Of a DNA stretch of 47,855 nt, positions 13,236 through 47,768 are shown piece by piece. Made by a program: the position numbers and the translations under genes. Numbering within the stretch: position 1 is the first letter of the stretch; every line of letters starts with the position of its first letter. Origin of the DNA: an uncultured Bdellovibrionales bacterium (GTDB lineage: Bacteria > Bdellovibrionota > Bdellovibrionia > Bdellovibrionales > UBA1609); contig CALGWV010000031.1 of the NCBI GenBank assembly GCA_937936325.1, forward strand, positions 1 to 47,855. Direction: 5' to 3'. Under the pieces are notes generated by a model. The model saw only the letters and a program-made list of their open reading frames with translations, was not told where the DNA came from and did not search any database.

Positions 13236-13312
<77 letters not shown>

Positions 13313-40347: not shown

Positions 40348-40581
40348 ATGAATAAGTTTAACAAACGAAAATTTGAAAAAGAAGAAATTGAAAGATTTGC
40401 CAACAAGTTGGTGGAAGTTTTTAAAAATCATTATGGGATTGATATTACTTATGGAAATTTGAACTTTGTCTACCACCAAGGGGTCTGTAAAAGTGTAACT
40501 CTTGAATCAAGAAATCGAATTTGTAATTTCAGAGAATCAGTAGACAAGCCCGTAATTAAGTTTGCAAAGAAGGTGTCATGA
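40348..40581 (+). CDS. Hypothetical small basic protein
   Basis: GGGGGA RBS. ATGA overlap with the following large gene. Confidence 0.5.
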   Translation: MNKFNKRKFEKEEIERFANKLVEVFKNHYGIDITYGNLNFVYHQGVCKSVTLESRNRICNFRESVDKPVIKFAKKVS

Positions 40582-43500
40582 ATACAGATAAAGACATAAG
40601 TCTTCCAATCGCACTATTGCTTTTCGGAGCAATAGTCGCTGTTTTCTTAGGACTGCACTTTAAAGCAGATATTTACGGGATCTTAGAGATTTCAGATATT
40701 TTGTATAAGGAGTACAGAACCTATATTCTAATTTTCTTAAGTATCATATTTTTAAACACGATCATATCGTCTTTATATTTAAGAAGGCTTCTGGGCCTCT
40801 CTAAACAAGGGGCAAGATTAAACTCGATTAGACCTAATGGAGCCAGTGTATCTCAACGAGGGATAATTTTTCTAGTAACTCTTCTGACCTCAATTCTAAT
40901 GATGACTTTGGTTAGTGATCAATTCATCCCAAAATTTCCAGAAGCGATTGGGGCTTTAGAGATTTTCAAATGGCAATCGTTTTTCTTCAAGTTCAACTTA
41001 GGACTTTTTGCTGCATTTGTATTTTACAGAATAATAGGATTTCTAAAGGTTGATGATCTTTTTTCATCAAGAGTTAAAATTAAAAGATTCCCTAAGGCCA
41101 AGAGTCAAATCACTCTAGGCACATCCCCAGCAGATAAGAAAGAAAAATGGGTCAGTTTAGATAGAAAGGCCTTAAACGGTTCAATATTAATCACCGGCTC
41201 AATTGGCTCGGGTAAAACTGCTGGTGCCATGCTCCCGTACTTTAAACAAGTACTCACTAATTTTGATCGAAAATCTATTTTAGCAATTGATCCTAAAAGA
41301 ACTTTCGTTGATGAAGCACAAAATCTTATAGACCAGTACAATCCAGAATCTATTGTAAGAAGAATAACTCTCGGTGGAACCGAAAAATACAATCCAATTT
41401 ATCTGAATAAGGTTCTTAAAAATACAAGATTTCTGGTTGTCACAAAGATGTTGATGCAAAGTGCTGCTAACTTTTCAAATGATGGGAGCAAAAATTCTTT
41501 TTGGGATCAAAGTGCGTTCAACCTTGTCAAAAATTCTTTGATCTACTGTGCGGCAATGAGCGAGTACTATACTCTCAATGAGCTATACAGTGCTTTAATT
41601 AGGGCCACAACTGTAGACCTCGCTGATGACTTAGAAAAAATGCTTTTAACTAAAAAGAGTGATTCTAAATTTGATGAAGAGGAACTCTTTAACATCAATT
41701 GCGCCATAAATTACTTTAAGCTTGAATTTAAATGCTATGACCAGAAAATAAAAACTAGTGTTTTGGCCACAGCAACAAGTTTTCTAAATCAGTTTCAAGA
41801 ATACCAAGCTTCACAGATCTTTTGCCCTCCTAAGGATGAACGAACCATATTGAGCATTGATGAGGTTGTGGACAAGGGAGAAATCATTCTATTTGATGTA
41901 GATAACCCTGCTTTAGCTAAATCAATGGGAACAATTATAAAGCTTCAATACGAAGATTCAATTTTAACCAGAGTTGCTGATAAAAAACGAGGTAAAGAAG
42001 TTCCGGCCTTTCTCATAATAGATGAGGCACAAGACGTTGTGAGTTCTGCTGGAGGTGATGGGCTTGGAGATGACAGATTCTTAGCTAAGTGTCGTGAAGC
42101 AAATGCCATTTGTATTATGGCCTCTCAAAGTTATTCATCTATTCAAAGTACATTTAAAAGTGAGGTGGCAACAAGAGAGCTTGTTCAAAACTTTAGAACA
42201 AGAATCGCTTTTCACTCCGCAGATGAGAAAACCATAAACAATTACAAAGAATTAGTAGGCCAATCTGAAAGTGAAAAGAAATCTCACAGCATTTCAGAGA
42301 TAGCCCAAAAAACAGAGAAAAACTATTTACTAGGAGGTTTTGATTCAAAAGACGCAAATATCAGTGAGTCGATTAACATCAGCACACAAAAAGAATGGGA
42401 TATTACAGGAAGAGAGTTCACAAGCTTAGGAACTTTTGAAGCTTGGGGGCTAGTTTATAATGGGAAAAGGACAGAGCTTAAGAAGCTCTATATGAAACCA
42501 AACTTTCTTGAAAGGCCCGAGACTGTCCATAGCAAGGTTCTAGATTCATTGTCACCAGAGGCAACTGGTCTACTTAGGAAGTCAGTGAGGTGGATTCTCG
42601 GAGCTTTAACAGGCCTTGCAATAACATCTTCGGCAAATGCTTTTCCATCTATTTGCTCAGTGATTAATCAGCCTAGCTTTAGGTCCTGCTTTTCTTTTAA
42701 CGTAAGTCCAACGATGTGTGGAAGTTTCCCGCCAAGGCCATGTGCGAGACTTAGCTATTATGTGCCTCAAACTTTCATTGAAACGACCAGCAGCAAAGGA
42801 CTTTCTCACTTCTCATCTCTTCCCATAGCAGCGGCCCAGTTAGCGGGAGTCATCAAGAAAAAGCCTTACGGGGCCGTGAATGATGATGACACTCAGTCAT
42901 TTCAGGCAAGGACAATTGCAGTCCCGCTAACGCAAATGGCTTTTTCAGGGATGCCTTGTGGCGGGGCAAGGCAAGAAAAAATGTGTTTCGATGGCATGAG
43001 CGAACACATAGACACTCACTGGTCTACGGGCAAAGGCGATCTCTTGCAGCCTGCTTTTCTAGCATGGAAAGTTAGTCCAAAGCTCTGCCTCTTGAAAGGG
43101 GCCGCCACCTCCGTGGTAGGCGGCCCCACTGGGGTTGTAGGAGCTGGATCACCTAGTTGCAGTATGCCGTTTCAAACCCTTCCAGTATTTCCTCCATCGG
43201 GTATGCCAGTATGTACAGGCTGGGGTGTGATGTTTCCAAGATACGGAACAACTGTTGGCGGCTCAGAGGTAATGGGCTCACTTAATATAGCGAGCAGAAT
43301 TAAAAGTCTCTCTGTTGAGGTTTTTAAAAATATGCCTGCTGGCTTTGATGAAAAATGGTCTATGCTCTCACCAAATTCAAGTCAGTGCTTCAGAGAATTT
43401 GAAAACATGGGAAAGCTTGAAACATTCAACCTCGTGAATAACCGAGGAAGAACTATCGGAAAAGATTTACGTGGAAACTTATTCACCACATGGAAGAGAG

Positions 43501-43586
43501 TCAGTTGCACAAGAGATTGGGCGGCAGTTCCTTTTTATAAAGCTCAAGTCGAGCTTTTAAGTGCAATATGTAAGGGGCTTAACTAA
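40578..43586 (+). CDS. Type IV coupling-protein-like ATPase (TraD/VirD4-like) continuous in frame with a TraU-like periplasmic domain
   Basis: N-terminal TM helices, Walker A GSIGSGKTAG and Walker B FLIIDEAQD. Then an internal signal-peptide-like segment RWILGALTGLAITSSANA. The Cys-rich C-terminal 330 aa is collinear with my recollection of F TraU (MFPRYGTT..SEVMGSL / MYPFNGWV..SSPLQSS; SQCFREF / GQCHPFG; TTWKRVSC / LMWRKRNC). Confidence 0.6.
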   Translation: MNTDKDISLPIALLLFGAIVAVFLGLHFKADIYGILEISDILYKEYRTYILIFLSIIFLNTIISSLYLRRLLGLSKQGARLNSIRPNGASVSQRGIIFLVTLLTSILMMTLVSDQFIPKFPEAIGALEIFKWQSFFFKFNLGLFAAFVFYRIIGFLKVDDLFSSRVKIKRFPKAKSQITLGTSPADKKEKWVSLDRKALNGSILITGSIGSGKTAGAMLPYFKQVLTNFDRKSILAIDPKRTFVDEAQNLIDQYNPESIVRRITLGGTEKYNPIYLNKVLKNTRFLVVTKMLMQSAANFSNDGSKNSFWDQSAFNLVKNSLIYCAAMSEYYTLNELYSALIRATTVDLADDLEKMLLTKKSDSKFDEEELFNINCAINYFKLEFKCYDQKIKTSVLATATSFLNQFQEYQASQIFCPPKDERTILSIDEVVDKGEIILFDVDNPALAKSMGTIIKLQYEDSILTRVADKKRGKEVPAFLIIDEAQDVVSSAGGDGLGDDRFLAKCREANAICIMASQSYSSIQSTFKSEVATRELVQNFRTRIAFHSADEKTINNYKELVGQSESEKKSHSISEIAQKTEKNYLLGGFDSKDANISESINISTQKEWDITGREFTSLGTFEAWGLVYNGKRTELKKLYMKPNFLERPETVHSKVLDSLSPEATGLLRKSVRWILGALTGLAITSSANAFPSICSVINQPSFRSCFSFNVSPTMCGSFPPRPCARLSYYVPQTFIETTSSKGLSHFSSLPIAAAQLAGVIKKKPYGAVNDDDTQSFQARTIAVPLTQMAFSGMPCGGARQEKMCFDGMSEHIDTHWSTGKGDLLQPAFLAWKVSPKLCLLKGAATSVVGGPTGVVGAGSPSCSMPFQTLPVFPPSGMPVCTGWGVMFPRYGTTVGGSEVMGSLNIASRIKSLSVEVFKNMPAGFDEKWSMLSPNSSQCFREFENMGKLETFNLVNNRGRTIGKDLRGNLFTTWKRVSCTRDWAAVPFYKAQVELLSAICKGLN

Positions 43587-44755
43587 TGGCAATAAAAGTA
43601 ATAAATGGTCTAACAACAACCTACACACTTTCTTCTGAGGAGAAACTTGAAAGCAGTGGAACTTATACAGGGCTTATAAGAGACTCAATTGATGAGGCGA
43701 TAAGATTGAACGCCAGTGACATTCATTTTGAACCTACAGAAAAAGGTTTTGTAATTCGGCACCGTATTTGTGGAAATCTTAAACTATTTTTTAATTTAGA
43801 AGAATCTAAAGATATTAAAATGCCGCCGGAGATTTTAAAAAATGGAATCACTACAACATTAAAATCTATTTCAAATATACCACTTGGAAGACAAAACGTT
43901 GCTCAAGACAGTGGAGTCAGTTTACCTAAACGAGGAGTAGACATTAGAGTTAACAAAATGCCGACCATTTATGGTGAAAAGTTTGTTTACCGCCTCTTTG
44001 ATAAAAATCAATCAACTGATCTAACCAAAATTGGCCTAACTCCTCAATCACTAAAGGACGTTATTGCAGCAACGAACAAGAAATCAGGACTGATTATTAT
44101 TACTAGTGAAACAGGAAGTGGTAAAACTTCTACAATTTATTCAATGATTGAGGCCATTGATAGGGGTTCACTAAATGTTTCAACTTTAGAAAATCCAGTT
44201 GAAAGAAACTTAAAAGGTGTGAATCACACAGCAGTAAATGACTCCTTCAGTTTTGCTGATGGGCTTAGAGCATTGATGAGGCAAGACCCAGATGTCATCG
44301 TTGTTGGAGAAATTAGAGATGAAGTGACCGCTAAACTTGCTGTAAGGGCAGCATCTACAGGGCACTTAGTTATCTCAACCATGCACACCAACACTGCTCT
44401 AAATATTCCTATGGTTTTTGAATACTATGGTGCTGACAAATTACAGATGATGAGATCGTTAATTTTAGGTGCGAATCAAAGACTAGTAAAAAGAATATGT
44501 CAAAACTGTGCATTATCTACCGAGAATGGATTCAAGAGAGCAAATGAAAAAGGATGTAGGCAATGTTTTTCTGGTTTTGAAAACAAAAGAGAGCTTCTCT
44601 TTGAATATTTCACAAGCGAGCAAATCAAAGAAAATATGGAATTGGGACTTAAGGTTTCAATGAATGAAATTTTTAACAATCTAGCAAAAAAAGGAGTCAT
44701 TGATGAACGTGAAATCTATCGTCAAGGTAGTTTGTTTAATTCAGACAGTGCTTAG
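43586..44755 (+). CDS. PilB/GspE-family secretion ATPase (short form, ATPase domain plus tetracysteine C-terminus)
   Basis: ASDIHFEP, Walker A SETGSGKTST, Asp box/Walker B LRALMRQDPDVIVVGEIRD, His box GHLVISTMHTN, CQNC...CRQC. TAATG overlap with the upstream gene. Confidence 0.8.
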   Translation: MAIKVINGLTTTYTLSSEEKLESSGTYTGLIRDSIDEAIRLNASDIHFEPTEKGFVIRHRICGNLKLFFNLEESKDIKMPPEILKNGITTTLKSISNIPLGRQNVAQDSGVSLPKRGVDIRVNKMPTIYGEKFVYRLFDKNQSTDLTKIGLTPQSLKDVIAATNKKSGLIIITSETGSGKTSTIYSMIEAIDRGSLNVSTLENPVERNLKGVNHTAVNDSFSFADGLRALMRQDPDVIVVGEIRDEVTAKLAVRAASTGHLVISTMHTNTALNIPMVFEYYGADKLQMMRSLILGANQRLVKRICQNCALSTENGFKRANEKGCRQCFSGFENKRELLFEYFTSEQIKENMELGLKVSMNEIFNNLAKKGVIDEREIYRQGSLFNSDSA

Positions 44756-45460
44756 TTTAAATCAAGCACTGGCAATTGATTTTTATAACGAGGGAATAGA
44801 CTACTGGCCTGAAGAAAAAAAGAAATAGCAGATACCACCAACAAAGGCTCTGCTAAAAAAATGCCAGACAAGTCTAAGAAAAAGTTTTCTTGGAAAGAAC
44901 ATTTAAACCCAAACAATGAGGAATTTTATAAAGAAGGAAACCATAGGCCACCAGCTCCATTTGTAGAGGTGGCAAAAAATCCTACAGATAAAAATATCTC
45001 AATGTGGCTTAAGTATCTTGAGATGAAAAATAAATTAGCATCAAGACTACAGAATAGAATTTCTGAGTACGTGCAAAAAAACAACAAAGTACCTATAGAG
45101 GTCAACTTAAAGGAGGTAAAGAAAGTAAATATTAAAAACGCAGGAAGGTTTAAGATCAGAATGTACTTTGAATCGACTTGTCCACACTGCAAGAGGATGA
45201 TGGCAACCCTAAACCAATTGCAAAATGAAGGATACTACGTTGAAGCTTTACAGCTAAACAAAGGCCCACTACTCAGGGCCAGTTATCCTTTAAGGTTAAG
45301 TAGTGCAAAAGCTGGTGATGCAACAAAACACAAAATAACAAGTGTTCCGTTTACATTAATAGCTGATCTTAAAAATAAAGTGATTTCAAAGCCGATTACT
45401 GGTTTTCAATCACCGGAACAAATTAAAAATATACTTCTTCTAATGGAGAAGAAAAACTAA
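44703..45460 (+). CDS. TraF/TrbB-like periplasmic thioredoxin-fold protein, split into two frames at a poly-A tract
   Basis: Frame 0 (44703-44825) encodes a signal peptide plus DFYNEGIDYWPEE, comparable to the GWQWYNE motif of F TraF. Frame -1 (open from 44813; annotated ORF 44861-45460) encodes the body with CPHC and a C-terminus collinear with TraF. The frames switch at A AAA AAG. Confidence 0.6.
44816..44822 (+). promoter_or_regulatory. Candidate -1 frameshift site A AAA AAG
   Basis: The heptamer is in the correct zero-frame phase (GAA AAA AAG). A TAG stop lies one codon (3 nt) downstream of the heptamer. The inverted repeat TAGCAG (44826-44831) / CTGCTA (44850-44855) follows. Confidence 0.4.
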
Positions 45461-45929: not shown

Positions 45930-46241
45930 ATGTATGATTATGATGAATTAAGAAAAACCCATCAAACCAAGATTAGTCAAACTCTAGACTCACCAATCAT
46001 GTTCGCTGATTTGTGGGAACTTAGAGACATTTTATTAAGTTTGATTTCAATTCTTGTATTCGGACTTATTTTCTACTCTTGGAAACTGTTAATTCTTTCG
46101 TTGATTTGGACTCTTTTAATAAATCCAAGGATTAAAAGAAATAACAACAGAGGGATTCTAATTCATTGGCCATACAAAATTTTTGGAATGGGCCTTAGAG
46201 GGTTAATGAACCCCAAAGGAAACAAACGGTATTCAGATTAA
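45930..46241 (+). CDS. traL: TraL-like type-F pilus assembly protein
   Basis: 103 aa. TLDSPIMFADLWELRDI followed by one long TM region, then NRGILIHWPYKIFGM, matching my recollection of the TraL family pattern. Confidence 0.6.
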   Translation: MYDYDELRKTHQTKISQTLDSPIMFADLWELRDILLSLISILVFGLIFYSWKLLILSLIWTLLINPRIKRNNNRGILIHWPYKIFGMGLRGLMNPKGNKRYSD

Positions 46242-46252
46242 GGAGAAAAATT

Positions 46253-46489
46253 ATGAGTAATTCAAATGATTCAAAAAATGAAACGAAAGGGAGAGATTTT
46301 TATGACCACAAACCTATTAGAGAATTTAAAGCGAGTATTTCTAAAAACGGAAAATTCTGGCTCTTTAAAGACATCACAACCCATATTGTCCCGAGGAAGT
46401 ATGTATCTAAAATTGATATGGACTTCAATCAAGAGCAAGTTGCTGATTCTAGCAGTGGCGATCAAAAGGCTGAACAACGAAATGCTTAG
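46253..46489 (+). CDS. Hypothetical small protein
   Basis: Strong AGGAG RBS 8 nt upstream. Its stop overlaps the next start (ATGCTTAG). Preferred over the competing long ORF that starts at 46266. Confidence 0.5.
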   Translation: MSNSNDSKNETKGRDFYDHKPIREFKASISKNGKFWLFKDITTHIVPRKYVSKIDMDFNQEQVADSSSGDQKAEQRNA

Positions 46490-47180: not shown

Positions 47181-47768
47181 ATGAGATATTTTTATTTATT
47201 ATTTTATATGGCATTTTCTGTAAATGCGTTTGCAGAAGAAACTAAAGAAGTCTTTTTTGGAACATCAACTGAAACCATTACGATTCCATTTGGAGAGCCA
47301 ACGGTTTTAAAGTTTGAAAAGCGTATTAAAAGGTACAGTAATTCTTCAAGTTATATCATTAATCCTGAAGATGAGCTAAACCCCGATTATACTACTTTGA
47401 GTGTTGTTCCAAAATTCACTAAAGGAAGTGAGAAGATCACTTTCATTTTAGAAAACGAGAAAATCGCAAGGATCAGGTTTAAAACAGAGTTCAATGAAGA
47501 AAAAGAGTTTAAAGAACTCACATTTGAACTTCGAGCTAAATCACACCTTGATAAGTCAAAGGCCCCTCCCATTGGTGAGGTAGAATTATTAAAAGCGATG
47601 GTTGGAGACAATGAAGTTGCAGGGTTTTCTAGAAAAGTAGTTTCTAAAACTCTCAGATCGGGTCAAAAAGGCGTATCAAAGAAGCTTGTAAGGATCTATG
47701 AGGGAAGAAATATGAATGGGTATGTTTTTAAGCTCACAAGTCATTTGTACAGAAATAAGAGCCTGTAA
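47181..47768 (+). CDS. traK: TraK-like (secretin-like) T4SS protein, probably C-terminally short
   Basis: Signal peptide. KITFILENEKI parallels PFTFILETERG of F TraK. 195 aa versus about 240 aa for F TraK. Confidence 0.5.
   Translation: MRYFYLLFYMAFSVNAFAEETKEVFFGTSTETITIPFGEPTVLKFEKRIKRYSNSSSYIINPEDELNPDYTTLSVVPKFTKGSEKITFILENEKIARIRFKTEFNEEKEFKELTFELRAKSHLDKSKAPPIGEVELLKAMVGDNEVAGFSRKVVSKTLRSGQKGVSKKLVRIYEGRNMNGYVFKLTSHLYRNKSL

What the first reader, a model, noticed from the sequence alone, without database searches (positions are those of the whole stretch)
44703..45460. TraF/TrbB-like gene split exactly at an in-phase A AAA AAG slippery heptamer
Frame 0 from the ATG at 44703 encodes a signal peptide and the motif DFYNEGIDYWPEE, then ends at TAG 44826-44828. 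The -1 frame is open from 44813 and contains the rest of the protein: the annotated ORF 44861-45460, with CPHC and a TraF-like C-terminus. The switch point is GAA AAA AAG (44814-44822). This contains the classical X XXY YYZ heptamer A AAA AAG used by E. coli dnaX, in the correct phase. The zero-frame stop lies one codon after the heptamer, and a 6-bp inverted repeat (TAGCAG/CTGCTA, 44826-44855) follows. Without the shift the thioredoxin-like body lacks a signal peptide, which makes no sense for a periplasmic pilus-assembly factor. The alternatives are programmed -1 frameshifting, transcriptional slippage on the A7 run, phase variation, a decaying gene, or a homopolymer sequencing error.
Basis: partly seen in the sequence, partly recalled or inferred. 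Interest (0 to 1): 0.7.

Follow-up and report, generated by a model that had tools for sequence, protein, structure and literature searches.

The report
Conserved frameshift site in conjugation-machinery gene
A gene for a periplasmic thioredoxin-like helper of a DNA-transfer (type IV secretion) machine in predatory Bdellovibrio-type bacteria can only be read in full if the ribosome slips back one base at a conserved A-AAA-AAG site followed by a conserved RNA hairpin, which looks like a previously undescribed case of programmed frameshifting.

Summary
ATG 44703 opens a 41-codon frame (signal peptide plus IDYW motif) that ends at TAG 44826. The -1 frame is open from 44813 and encodes the rest of a CPHC thioredoxin-fold protein (to 45460). 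A_AAA_AAG (44816-44822) lies in phase inside the 16-nt overlap.

Comparative data argue strongly for programmed -1 ribosomal frameshifting. Twenty-four distinct orthologous sequences (37 loci, Bdellovibrionota MAGs and metagenomes, 39-63% amino-acid identity) keep the same two-frame layout at the same codon. Twenty-one have A_AAA_AAG and three have only A_AAG plus a stop. All have a hairpin 5-6 nt downstream with compensatory changes at every stem position; 59 continuous-frame homologues have none. Both frames show dN/dS of 0.02-0.28. Independent assemblies give the same A-run.

This excludes sequencing error, pseudogene and phase variation. Transcriptional slippage does not fit lineages with A6 or A3 runs.

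The same clusters carry a second -1 site in the traB/virB10-like gene, beyond this window. In one lineage the two hairpin loops evolve in concert.

The mechanism is classical (dnaX/IS3-like). I found no earlier description of it in this gene family. No expression data exist.

The parts
44692..44696 (+). Shine-Dalgarno sequence AGGAG, 6 nt before ATG 44703
   Evidence: Read. The equivalent AGGAG/AAGGAG sits before the start codon in L001 and L006. Nothing comparable precedes ATG 44861.
44703..44822 (+). Frame-0 coding segment, codons 1-40: signal peptide, conserved (Y/F)(F/Y)..G-I-D-Y-W motif and the KK dipeptide
   Evidence: It is homologous to the N-termini of uninterrupted homologues P0003, P0006, P0007, P0009, P0012, P0014 and P0020. 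dN/dS of this segment is 0.02-0.28.
44703..44774 (+). Probable signal peptide (MNVKSIVKVVCLIQTVLSLNQALA, A-L-A cleavage motif)
   Evidence: By eye; no signal-peptide predictor was run. AF2 models residues 3-29 as one helix.
44810..44812 (+). TGA stop in the -1 frame; 5' limit of the 16-nt window in which the shift must happen
44816..44822 (+). Slippery heptamer A_AAA_AAG, in phase with frame 0
   Evidence: It is identical in 21 of 24 distinct orthologous sites, and AAAG is invariant in all 24.
44826..44828 (+). Frame-0 stop TAG, one codon after the heptamer; also the first 3 nt of the hairpin
   Evidence: The frame-0 stop lies 0-3 codons after AAG in 23 of 24 orthologous sites.
44826..44855 (+). 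Downstream stimulatory hairpin: arms 44826-44832 / 44849-44855 (7 bp; conserved 5-bp core 44828-44832 / 44849-44853) and inner pairs 44835-44836 / 44846-44847
   Evidence: -9.1 kcal/mol, z -2.7. The same position and two-tier shape occur in all 24 sequences. Covariation is shown. It is absent from continuous-frame homologues.
44822..45460 (+). -1-frame coding segment (EIADTTNK... to stop TAA 45458-45460): linker, long helix and thioredoxin-fold domain
   Evidence: dN/dS is 0.04-0.21.
45179..45190 (+). CPHC redox motif
   Evidence: C160, P161, H162 and C163 are invariant in alignment A1.

Best explanation
The gene at 44703-45460 is one functional gene. It encodes a secreted, thioredoxin-fold thiol:disulfide oxidoreductase of an F-like type IV secretion cluster, and it is expressed by programmed -1 ribosomal frameshifting. 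Ribosomes start at ATG 44703 and translate the signal peptide and the IDYW motif. With lysyl-tRNAs on AAA (P site) and AAG (A site) of A_AAA_AAG (44816-44822), a fraction slips back one base. The hairpin at 44826-44855 helps by resisting unwinding. Shifted ribosomes continue with GAA 44822 and make the 252-residue precursor ...WPEEKK-EIADTTNK.... Non-shifted ribosomes stop at TAG 44826 and release a 41-residue prepeptide. Shown here: the anatomy; conservation of the site, layout and hairpin; covariation; and purifying selection in both frames. Inferred: that slippage is ribosomal, its efficiency, and its purpose. The likely purpose is a fixed or condition-dependent low output of this protein and of the similarly split TraB-like protein. 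The likely origin is a 1-nt deletion in an ancestral KK-coding A-run that was rescued by the intrinsic shiftiness of A_AAA_AAG.
For: (1) The anatomy is in phase and sits inside a 16-nt overlap.

(2) Uninterrupted homologues show that the 41-codon ORF is the true N-terminus. They have the same W+3-codons-KK spacing.

(3) Thirty-seven loci, giving 24 distinct sequences, keep the -1 layout at the same codon. Type A has GAA AAA AAG, type B has GGA AAA AAG and type C has GTA AAG TAG.

(4) The same A-run appears in independent assemblies and runs: L001/L002/L003, L006/L007/L008 and L004/L005.

(5) dN/dS is 0.02-0.28 upstream in frame 0 and 0.04-0.21 downstream in frame -1. dS between lineages is saturated, yet AAAG is invariant.

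(6) Every -1 sequence has a hairpin starting 5-6 nt after the heptamer. Mean z is -2.4, against -0.34 for 59 continuous-frame homologues at the same position (Mann-Whitney p = 7e-11).

(7) Stem covariation is clear. There are 11 stem haplotypes and 54 of 55 cells pair, against 72% in shuffles (0 of 5000 shuffles reach the observed value). The tool count on 8 sequences gives 97.5% paired against 80.6 +/- 4.3, a covariation score of 0.543 against 0.215 (0 of 500), and slid registers of 15-42%.

(8) The lineage with only the A_AAG tetramer has the strongest hairpins (-13 to -20 kcal/mol). A_AAG is the most shift-prone tetramer in E. coli (PMC4066793).

(9) In L006 the conserved KFDW...FFKEGDYTPPEPF stretch lies upstream of any start codon in the -1 frame, so it can only be translated by frameshifting.

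(10) The same clusters have a second -1 junction with A_AAA_AAG or A_AAG plus a hairpin in the traB-like gene.
Against: There is no transcript, proteomic or reporter evidence. The hairpin in this window and in types A and B is modest (-5 to -9 kcal/mol). No conserved Shine-Dalgarno-like stimulator lies 6-17 nt upstream. The lysine-tRNA set of these bacteria is unknown; a tRNA-Lys(CUU) would lower shiftiness at AAG. The window sequence itself comes from a single contig. One continuous-frame relative (L063) groups with type B, so single origin versus reversion is unresolved. An A7 run could also allow some transcriptional slippage in this particular element.
Confidence: 0.8

Rival explanations
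1. Programmed transcriptional slippage: RNA polymerase adds one A on the A7 run, so a fraction of mRNAs is in frame.
For: This window and the other type A loci have A7. An extra A would give the same protein apart from one additional Lys.
Against: Known programmed cases use runs of about 9 or more A or T (Thermus dnaX A9, Shigella mxiE/spa genes; PMC3711429 and PMC5009743). Type B keeps the layout with A6 and type C with A3. The second site in type B is GCA AAG. A covarying hairpin 5-6 nt downstream is the signature of a ribosomal stimulator.
Confidence: 0.07
2. Two separate products: a small secreted peptide from 44703-44828, and a signal-less cytoplasmic thioredoxin-like protein started at ATG 44861, possibly by termination-reinitiation.
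For: ATG 44861 lies 33 nt after the frame-0 stop. Gene callers annotate the 199-aa ORF.
Against: ATG 44861 has no Shine-Dalgarno sequence. The internal start is not conserved: it is GTG in L001 and L004, and in L006 no start occurs before the conserved FFKEG..PP.PF block. Uninterrupted homologues are single secreted proteins. The closest folds are extracytoplasmic oxidoreductases.
Confidence: 0.05
3. Homopolymer sequencing or assembly error, or a recently inactivated pseudogene.
For: A7 runs are error-prone, and the window is a single contig (one search found no second copy).
Against: The same layout appears in 24 distinct sequences at 39-63% identity and in independent assemblies. No further disruptions occur. 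dN/dS is far below 1 in both frames.
Confidence: 0.02
4. Phase variation: DNA-level slipped-strand changes in the A-run switch the gene ON and OFF.
For: The homopolymer sits in a surface or secretion-system gene, which is a classical contingency-locus context.
Against: None of the 37 loci is an in-frame length variant of the run, and the run length is fixed within each lineage. Type C has no run. The only in-frame relative, L063, has a T interrupting the run rather than a length change, and it lacks the hairpin.
Confidence: 0.02

Closest known systems
E. coli dnaX -1 programmed frameshift (A_AAA_AAG, upstream SD, downstream stem-loop)
   Same: It has the identical heptamer in phase, a stem-loop about 5-6 nt downstream, and a frame-0 or -1 stop close to the site.
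   Different: In dnaX the shift truncates the protein (gamma against tau), and an SD-like element 10 nt upstream contributes. Here the shift is needed to make the long functional product, no conserved SD-like element was found, and the hairpin is shorter (5-7 bp outer stem).
IS3-family transposase OrfAB (e.g. IS911, IS3) -1 frameshift
   Same: A_AAA_AAG is followed by a hairpin. The trans-frame fusion is the functional long product, and the frame-0 product is short. The context is a mobile element.
   Different: The gene is a secretion-system accessory protein, not a transposase. The frame-0 product here is only a 41-residue prepeptide.
B. subtilis cdd and other A_AAG tetramer sites (Z_ZZN class; Sharma et al. 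2014, PMC4066793)
   Same: Type C orthologues and the type B traB-like site rely on A_AAG alone, next to a stop codon.
   Different: Here the tetramer sites are evolutionary derivatives of a heptamer site. They are paired with strong hairpins rather than an SD.
F-plasmid TrbB / TraF (thioredoxin-fold periplasmic T4SS assembly factors)
   Same: It has a thioredoxin fold and is encoded in an F-like cluster (TraL, TraE, TraK and TraB/VirB10 homologues follow). A CXXC motif is present as in TrbB. It shows 23% identity (E = 1e-5) to annotated TraF of Klebsiella plasmids.
   Different: Scores are below the curated family cut-offs. It has its own N-terminal IDYW motif and long-helix architecture. In the literature searched, TraF and TrbB are not described as being expressed by frameshifting.
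Recoding in secretion or transfer systems: Shigella T3SS transcriptional slippage (mxiE, spa13, spa33) and ICEMlSymR7A FseA +1 frameshift
   Same: Recoding gates production of secretion or transfer-machinery components.
   Different: Those cases are transcriptional (A9/T9) or +1 events in a regulator. Here a -1 ribosomal shift occurs in structural or assembly genes, at two sites per operon.

Membership tests
Bacterial -1 programmed ribosomal frameshift sites (X_XXY_YYZ / Z_ZZN class) | Slippery heptamer or tetramer in phase with the upstream frame | tested here: met
   A_AAA_AAG is at 44816-44822, with AAA and AAG as frame-0 codons. Twenty-one of 24 orthologous sites have the heptamer and 3 have A_AAG.
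Bacterial -1 programmed ribosomal frameshift sites (X_XXY_YYZ / Z_ZZN class) | The -1 ORF overlaps the frame-0 ORF at the site and encodes the homologous continuation of the protein | tested here: met
   The overlap is 16 nt (44813-44828). The -1 frame aligns with uninterrupted homologues.
Bacterial -1 programmed ribosomal frameshift sites (X_XXY_YYZ / Z_ZZN class) | Site and two-frame layout conserved among diverged orthologues, with reduced synonymous variation at the site | tested here: met
   Entropy is 0 at AAAG, against 1-1.7 bits at neighbouring third positions.
Bacterial -1 programmed ribosomal frameshift sites (X_XXY_YYZ / Z_ZZN class) | Downstream RNA structure at 5-9 nt, supported by covariation (usual, not obligatory) | tested here: met
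Bacterial -1 programmed ribosomal frameshift sites (X_XXY_YYZ / Z_ZZN class) | Trans-frame protein produced; measurable frameshift efficiency | not testable with these tools
   This needs MS or reporter assays.
dnaX-type site specifically | Shine-Dalgarno-like stimulator 6-17 nt upstream of the heptamer | tested here: not met
   Upstream 30 nt of the 24 sequences were inspected. Only Gly/Trp-codon G-runs appear, at variable or too distant positions, and nothing is conserved. This feature is specific to dnaX and is not required for the general class.
TraF (PF13728) / TrbB (TIGR02738) F-type T4SS thioredoxin-like proteins | Score above the curated family threshold | tested here: not met
   PF13728 scores 21.2 bits against a cut-off of 23. 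TIGR02740 scores 25.9 against 232 and TIGR02738 scores 23.8 against 132. Some clade members carry precomputed PF13728 hits.
TraF (PF13728) / TrbB (TIGR02738) F-type T4SS thioredoxin-like proteins | Thioredoxin fold | tested here: met
   In the AF2 model, residues 150-251 have pLDDT of about 90 or more. Foldseek top hits are thiol-disulfide oxidoreductases (3hdc, StoA, ResA, CcmG; E about 1e-5).
TraF (PF13728) / TrbB (TIGR02738) F-type T4SS thioredoxin-like proteins | CXXC active site (present in TrbB, absent in F TraF) | tested here: met
   CPHC is invariant.
TraF (PF13728) / TrbB (TIGR02738) F-type T4SS thioredoxin-like proteins | Sec signal peptide (periplasmic location) | tested here: inconclusive
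   Residues 1-24 look like a signal peptide by eye, and only when joined by the frameshift. No predictor was available.
TraF (PF13728) / TrbB (TIGR02738) F-type T4SS thioredoxin-like proteins | Encoded within an F-like T4SS gene cluster | tested here: met
   Neighbours are a T4CP-like gene at 40578-43586, TraL-like at 45930, TraE-like at 46266 and TraK-like at 47181. A TrbI/VirB10-like gene lies downstream in orthologous loci.
Programmed transcriptional realignment | Homopolymeric run of about 9 or more A or T conserved at the junction | tested here: not met
   The run is A7 here, A6 in type B and A3 in type C.
Phase-variable contingency gene | Run-length polymorphism (ON and OFF alleles) among close relatives | tested here: not met
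   No length variants occur among 37 loci.

The most novel reading that the evidence does not exclude
The two frameshift cassettes of these T4SS operons (traF-like and traB-like genes) may form a regulon read by a shared trans-acting factor, a protein or an RNA, that recognises the hairpin's apical loop. T4SS assembly would then be switched by regulated -1 frameshifting. To my knowledge, trans-activated -1 PRF has so far been described only in viruses. The lead is this. In the type B lineage the apical 15-mer is identical at both sites within each genome but differs between genomes (ACGGCCGC..., ACGGCCAC..., ACGACCAC...). It is translated in different phases at the two sites. This has not been examined for the lineage of this window, whose contig ends before traB.
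Probability: 0.1. Interest if true: 0.9.

Novelty: new member of a known kind. Interest (0 to 1): 0.66.

Why it matters
Few bacterial genes outside insertion sequences and phages have well-supported programmed -1 frameshifting; dnaX, cdd, copA and csoS2 are the usual examples. This case has unusually complete comparative support: a conserved heptamer, a hairpin with compensatory changes, a heptamer-to-tetramer transition matched by stronger hairpins, and built-in controls in the form of continuous-frame homologues without the hairpin. It sits in the assembly genes of a type IV secretion system of predatory bacteria. It also matters for annotation. Gene callers report a truncated, signal-less 'cytoplasmic' thioredoxin (199, 177 or 168 aa) and a 41-aa orphan, and they split the TraB/VirB10-like protein in two. 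Two obligatory frameshifts in one operon would make output of the machine depend on frameshift efficiency, and therefore possibly on lysyl-tRNA status or growth state. This gives a compact system in which to study why cells keep an obligatory frameshift.

Tried and rejected
- An exact look-up of the 199-aa ORF product in public assemblies found no second copy.
- The covariance model R1 was used to re-align all sites. The alignment stayed ungapped and did not fix the 1-nt register difference of the 3' arm between lineages. Covariation was therefore counted by script and with the tool on the 8 sequences that share one register. The search was still useful because it revealed the second site.
- My regex classifier wrongly called L095 a frameshift locus. 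It is a continuous-frame gene with an out-of-phase TGG...AAAAAAG, so I excluded it. It is still counted among the 25 'FS' entries, where it weakens the contrast slightly.
- No conserved upstream SD-like stimulator was seen (inspection).
- No obvious pseudoknot partner for the A/C-rich loop was seen downstream. This was inspection only, not a formal test.
- Readthrough of TAG 44826 is rejected. Frame 0 beyond it is unrelated to the homologues and closes again about 25 codons later.
- I tried to see whether continuous-frame lineages also have a continuous traB-like gene. The loci were too short or too diverged, and only L053 was informative (continuous).
- A Pfam scan of the Cys-rich C-terminal extension of the coupling protein found nothing.
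Full report
**1. The observation**

Reading the window confirms every coordinate in the finding.
- ATG 44703 is preceded by AGGAG at 44692-44696. It overlaps the 3' end of the upstream GspE/PilB-type ATPase gene (43586-44755).
- It opens a 41-codon frame: MNVKSIVKVVCLIQTVLSLNQALA|IDFYNEGIDYWPEEKKK, ending at TAG 44826-44828.
- The junction reads CCT GAA GAA AAA AAG AAA TAG. A_AAA_AAG (44816-44822) is therefore in X_XXY_YYZ phase.
- The -1 frame is closed by TGA 44810-44812 and open from 44813 to TAA 45458-45460. Any shift must happen within 16 nt.
- The -1 frame carries YFESTCPHC (CPHC at 45179-45190).
It folds at -9.1 kcal/mol, z = -2.7.

The heptamer by itself is not remarkable in this AT-rich DNA: there are 58 copies against 48 +/- 7 expected. 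Context and conservation carry the argument.

**2. What the protein is**

The fused 252-residue sequence gives only sub-threshold matches to curated families:
- TraF PF13728: 21.2 bits against a cut-off of 23.
- Thioredoxin_2: 19.6 bits against 27.
- NCBIfam TraF-like and TrbB: about 24-26 bits against cut-offs of 232 and 132.

Other evidence places it more firmly.
- tblastn against plasmids finds annotated TraF of Klebsiella plasmids at 23% identity, E = 1e-5, over residues 93-250.
- An AlphaFold2 model (pLDDT 77) has a confident thioredoxin domain at residues 150-251, a long helix at 96-126, and a disordered linker at 26-54 that contains the shift point at residue 40.
- Foldseek's best PDB matches are extracytoplasmic thiol-disulfide oxidoreductases: 3hdc, StoA, ResA and CcmG/DsbE.
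- Neighbouring genes are a coupling-protein homologue and TraL-, TraE- and TraK-like genes. Orthologous loci also have a TrbI/VirB10-like gene.

So this is a secreted CXXC thioredoxin-fold accessory protein of an F-like T4SS. It probably works like TrbB. It is not a curated member of either family.

**3. Orthologues**

A protein search with the fused sequence (alignment) returned two kinds of relatives.
- Uninterrupted proteins of 220-281 aa. They have a signal peptide, the (Y/F)F..G-I-D-Y-W motif and, three codons after the Trp, a KK dipeptide.
- Many proteins of 165-201 aa that start where the window's ORF starts, or at an internal Met further downstream.

I fetched the DNA of the second kind by several routes; a species-representative genome scan (53 loci); and a metagenome scan (56 loci). 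A script classified the frames. Thirty-seven loci, giving 24 distinct sequences, have exactly the window's layout. The N-terminal 38-47 codons are in one frame, the rest is in the -1 frame, and the junction always lies five codons after the Trp codon. All come from Bdellovibrionota MAGs (Bacteriovoracia, Bdellovibrionia, Oligoflexia) or from metagenomes.

Three site types exist:

| Type | Junction sequence | Loci |
|---|---|---|
| A | GAA AAA AAG | window, L001, L006, L010, L011, L062 |
| B | GGA AAA AAG NNC TAG (only six A, heptamer still in phase) | L019, L021, L024, L028, L031, L034, L036, L038, L043, L069, L070, L074-076, L080, L082, L089, L090, L094, L116 |
| C | TCN GTA AAG TAG (only the A_AAG tetramer, stop adjacent) | L004, L015, L018 |

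The frame-0 stop lies 0-3 codons after AAG in all but L011.

Identical junctions were recovered from independent assemblies and sequencing runs:
- L001/L002/L003: one NCBI MAG and two Logan assemblies.
- L006/L007/L008: two NCBI MAGs and one Logan assembly.
- L004/L005: one NCBI MAG and one Logan assembly.

**4. The gene is alive in both frames**

For pairs whose synonymous divergence is not saturated, dN/dS is 0.02-0.28 for the 25 frame-0 codons before the site. It is 0.04-0.21 for the -1-frame body. Between lineages dS is saturated, yet AAAG is invariant in all 24 sequences. Neighbouring third codon positions carry 1-1.7 bits of entropy.

In L006 the invariant block KFDW..FFKEGDYTPPEPF lies upstream of any ATG, GTG or TTG in the -1 frame. 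It can only be translated by ribosomes that arrive from frame 0. ATG 44861 in the window has no Shine-Dalgarno sequence, and its counterparts are not conserved.

**5. The hairpin**

RNAfold of the 48 nt after the heptamer gives the same two-tier hairpin in every -1 sequence. It has an outer stem of 5-7 bp whose conserved core begins 5-6 nt after the heptamer, a 2-nt internal loop, and an inner stem of 2-5 bp.

- **Comparison with continuous-frame homologues.** Mean z against dinucleotide shuffles is -2.4. It is -0.34 for 59 continuous-frame homologues at the equivalent position, and those show no common structure (Mann-Whitney p = 7e-11).
- **Pair types seen at each stem position**:

| Stem pair | Pair types observed |
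|---|---|
| 1 | G-C, T-A, A-T, C-G, G·T |
| 2 | C-G, G-C, T·G |
| 3 | A-T, G-C, G·T |
| 4 | G-C, A-T |
| 5 | A-T, C-G, T·G |

- **Stem pairing.** Across 11 stem haplotypes, 54 of 55 cells pair. Shuffles give 72 +/- 4%, and 0 of 5000 reach the observed value.
- **Tool count.** The count on the eight most diverse sequences that share one register gives 97.5% paired against 80.6 +/- 4.3, and a covariation score of 0.543 against 0.215 (0 of 500). Slid registers give 15-42%.
- **Type C.** This lineage has lost the heptamer but has by far the most stable hairpins (-12.8 to -20.2 kcal/mol, against -5 to -9). That is what one expects if a weaker slippery site is compensated by a stronger stimulator.
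- **The A_AAG tetramer.** A_AAG is the most shift-prone tetramer in E. coli (Sharma et al. 2014, PMC4066793).

**6. Phylogeny**

In an NJ tree of genome-scan sequences the -1 genes form one clade nested among continuous-frame genes. With metagenome sequences added (83 distinct proteins), types A, B and C each have 60/60 bootstrap support. One continuous-frame sequence, L063 (identical to L114), is sister to type B. It reads TGG TCT AGT GAT AAA AAA GTT GAA and has no hairpin. The clade of all -1 genes plus L063 is supported 28/60.

This leaves two scenarios: one origin with a later 1-nt restoration in L063, or two origins. The shared hairpin position and architecture favour one origin, but this is not settled. 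The continuous homologues also have KK at the same spacing, encoded by A-rich codons. A 1-nt deletion in that run, rescued by the intrinsic shiftiness of A_AAA_AAG, is therefore a simple origin. This is an inference; the 'savior indel' idea comes from PMC5009743.

**7. Mechanism and rivals**

| Alternative | Why it is rejected |
|---|---|
| Sequencing error | Contradicted by sections 3 and 4 |
| Pseudogene | Contradicted by sections 3 and 4 |
| Phase variation | No run-length variants exist among 37 loci, and type C has no run |
| Separate genes or reinitiation | Contradicted by section 4 |
| TAG readthrough | Frame 0 beyond TAG is unrelated to the homologues and closes about 25 codons later |

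Transcriptional slippage could contribute on the A7 run of this particular element. It cannot explain A6 (type B), A3 (type C) or the covarying hairpin at ribosomal-stimulator spacing.

I therefore put about 0.8 on obligatory programmed -1 ribosomal frameshifting. Efficiency and purpose are not known. Non-shifted ribosomes would make a 41-residue prepeptide, which would leave 17 residues (IDFYNEGIDYWPEEKKK) after signal cleavage.

**8. A second site, outside the window**

The covariance-model search flagged a second place about 3.5 kb downstream in type B loci. Reading the frames shows that the TraB/VirB10-like gene is also split in the -1 direction.
- In types A and C the junction is GGA AAA AAG, for example L006 GGA AAA AAG TAA. 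The conserved (V/A)E(Y/N)(E/Q)(L/I)PLG lies in the -1 frame.
- In type B the junction is GCA AAG TCC TAG.
- Each is followed at +4 to +6 by a hairpin, and these stems also show compensatory changes: L001 TCAAC/GTTGA, L015 TCGAC/GTCGA, L010 and L011 TCGGT/GCCGA.

In type B the apical 15-mer of the two hairpins is the same within a genome and differs between genomes:

| Locus | Apical 15-mer |
|---|---|
| L019 | ACGGCCGCAAACGAG at both sites |
| L034 | ACGGCCACAAACGAG at both sites |
| L036, L038, L043 | ACGACCACAAACGAG at both sites |
| L031 | the two sites differ at one position |

This 15-mer is read in different codon phases at the two sites (TTTTNE against PRPQTS). Its conservation is therefore at the nucleotide level, and the two cassettes evolve in concert. 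Gene conversion and a shared trans-acting partner are the candidate explanations, and neither was tested. The window's contig ends at 47855, before its traB-like gene.

**9. Novelty**

The literature held here gives no description of frameshifting in TraF/TrbB-like or TraB/VirB10-like T4SS genes, or in Bdellovibrionota. This covers the 2016 recoding review (PMC5009743), the GeneTack cluster paper (PMC3711429), the heptamer/tetramer survey (PMC4066793), and full-text searches combining TraF, TrbB, thioredoxin, Bdellovibrio, conjugative and frameshift. The known recoding event in a conjugative element is the +1 shift in the ICEMlSymR7A regulator FseA (PMC4755241).

The mechanism itself is the classical dnaX/IS3 type, so I rate this a new member of a known kind. 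The concerted loops are the one feature that could turn out to be more than that.

Noticed in passing
L006:6330-6420; L001:6440-6570; L010:6590-6700; L015:6480-6560; L036:5860-5911; L038:6525-6576 (beyond the end of the window): There is a second -1 two-frame junction in the TraB/VirB10(TrbI)-like gene of the same clusters. Types A and C have GGA AAA AAG, type B has GCA AAG TCC TAG, and each is followed by a hairpin with compensatory stem changes. Gene callers split this protein into a ~130-158-aa ORF and a 'TrbI' ORF.
   Followed up: partly
L019:1665 and 5212; L034:2944 and 6390; L036:2354 and 5877; L038:3019 and 6542; L043:3019 and 6548: The apical 15-mer of the two frameshift hairpins (traF-like and traB-like sites) is identical within each type B genome. 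It differs between genomes and is translated in different phases at the two sites. This is concerted nucleotide-level evolution and remains unexplained.
   Followed up: partly
window 40578-43586: The coupling-protein (TraD/TraG-like) ORF is 1002 aa. After the ATPase part comes a hydrophobic, signal-like segment and a ~330-aa Cys-rich C-terminal extension with no Pfam match. The same ~1010-aa architecture occurs in L006/L007. In L004 the region following the coupling-protein ORF is instead called as a separate 109-aa ORF.
   Followed up: partly
window 43586-44755: A GspE/PilB-type (T2SSE) ATPase, rather than a VirB11/TraJ-type ATPase, sits inside the F-like T4SS cluster. It overlaps the start of the split gene by 53 nt. 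The arrangement is conserved in L001, L004 and L006.
   Followed up: no
L011 and L034 (both from MAG JAUICP01, Bdellovibrionia 7_bin.39): One genome carries two of these T4SS clusters, one with a type A shift site and one with a type B shift site.
   Followed up: no
L063:211-957 (= L114): This is the only continuous-frame gene that groups with the frameshifted clade, as sister to type B. The A-run is interrupted (GAT AAA AAA GTT) and there is no downstream hairpin. It is either a revertant or evidence for two origins.
   Followed up: partly
window 13236-13312: A single tRNA-Met gene lies about 26 kb upstream of the T4SS genes. Whether it marks an integration site of a mobile element was not examined.
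   Followed up: no
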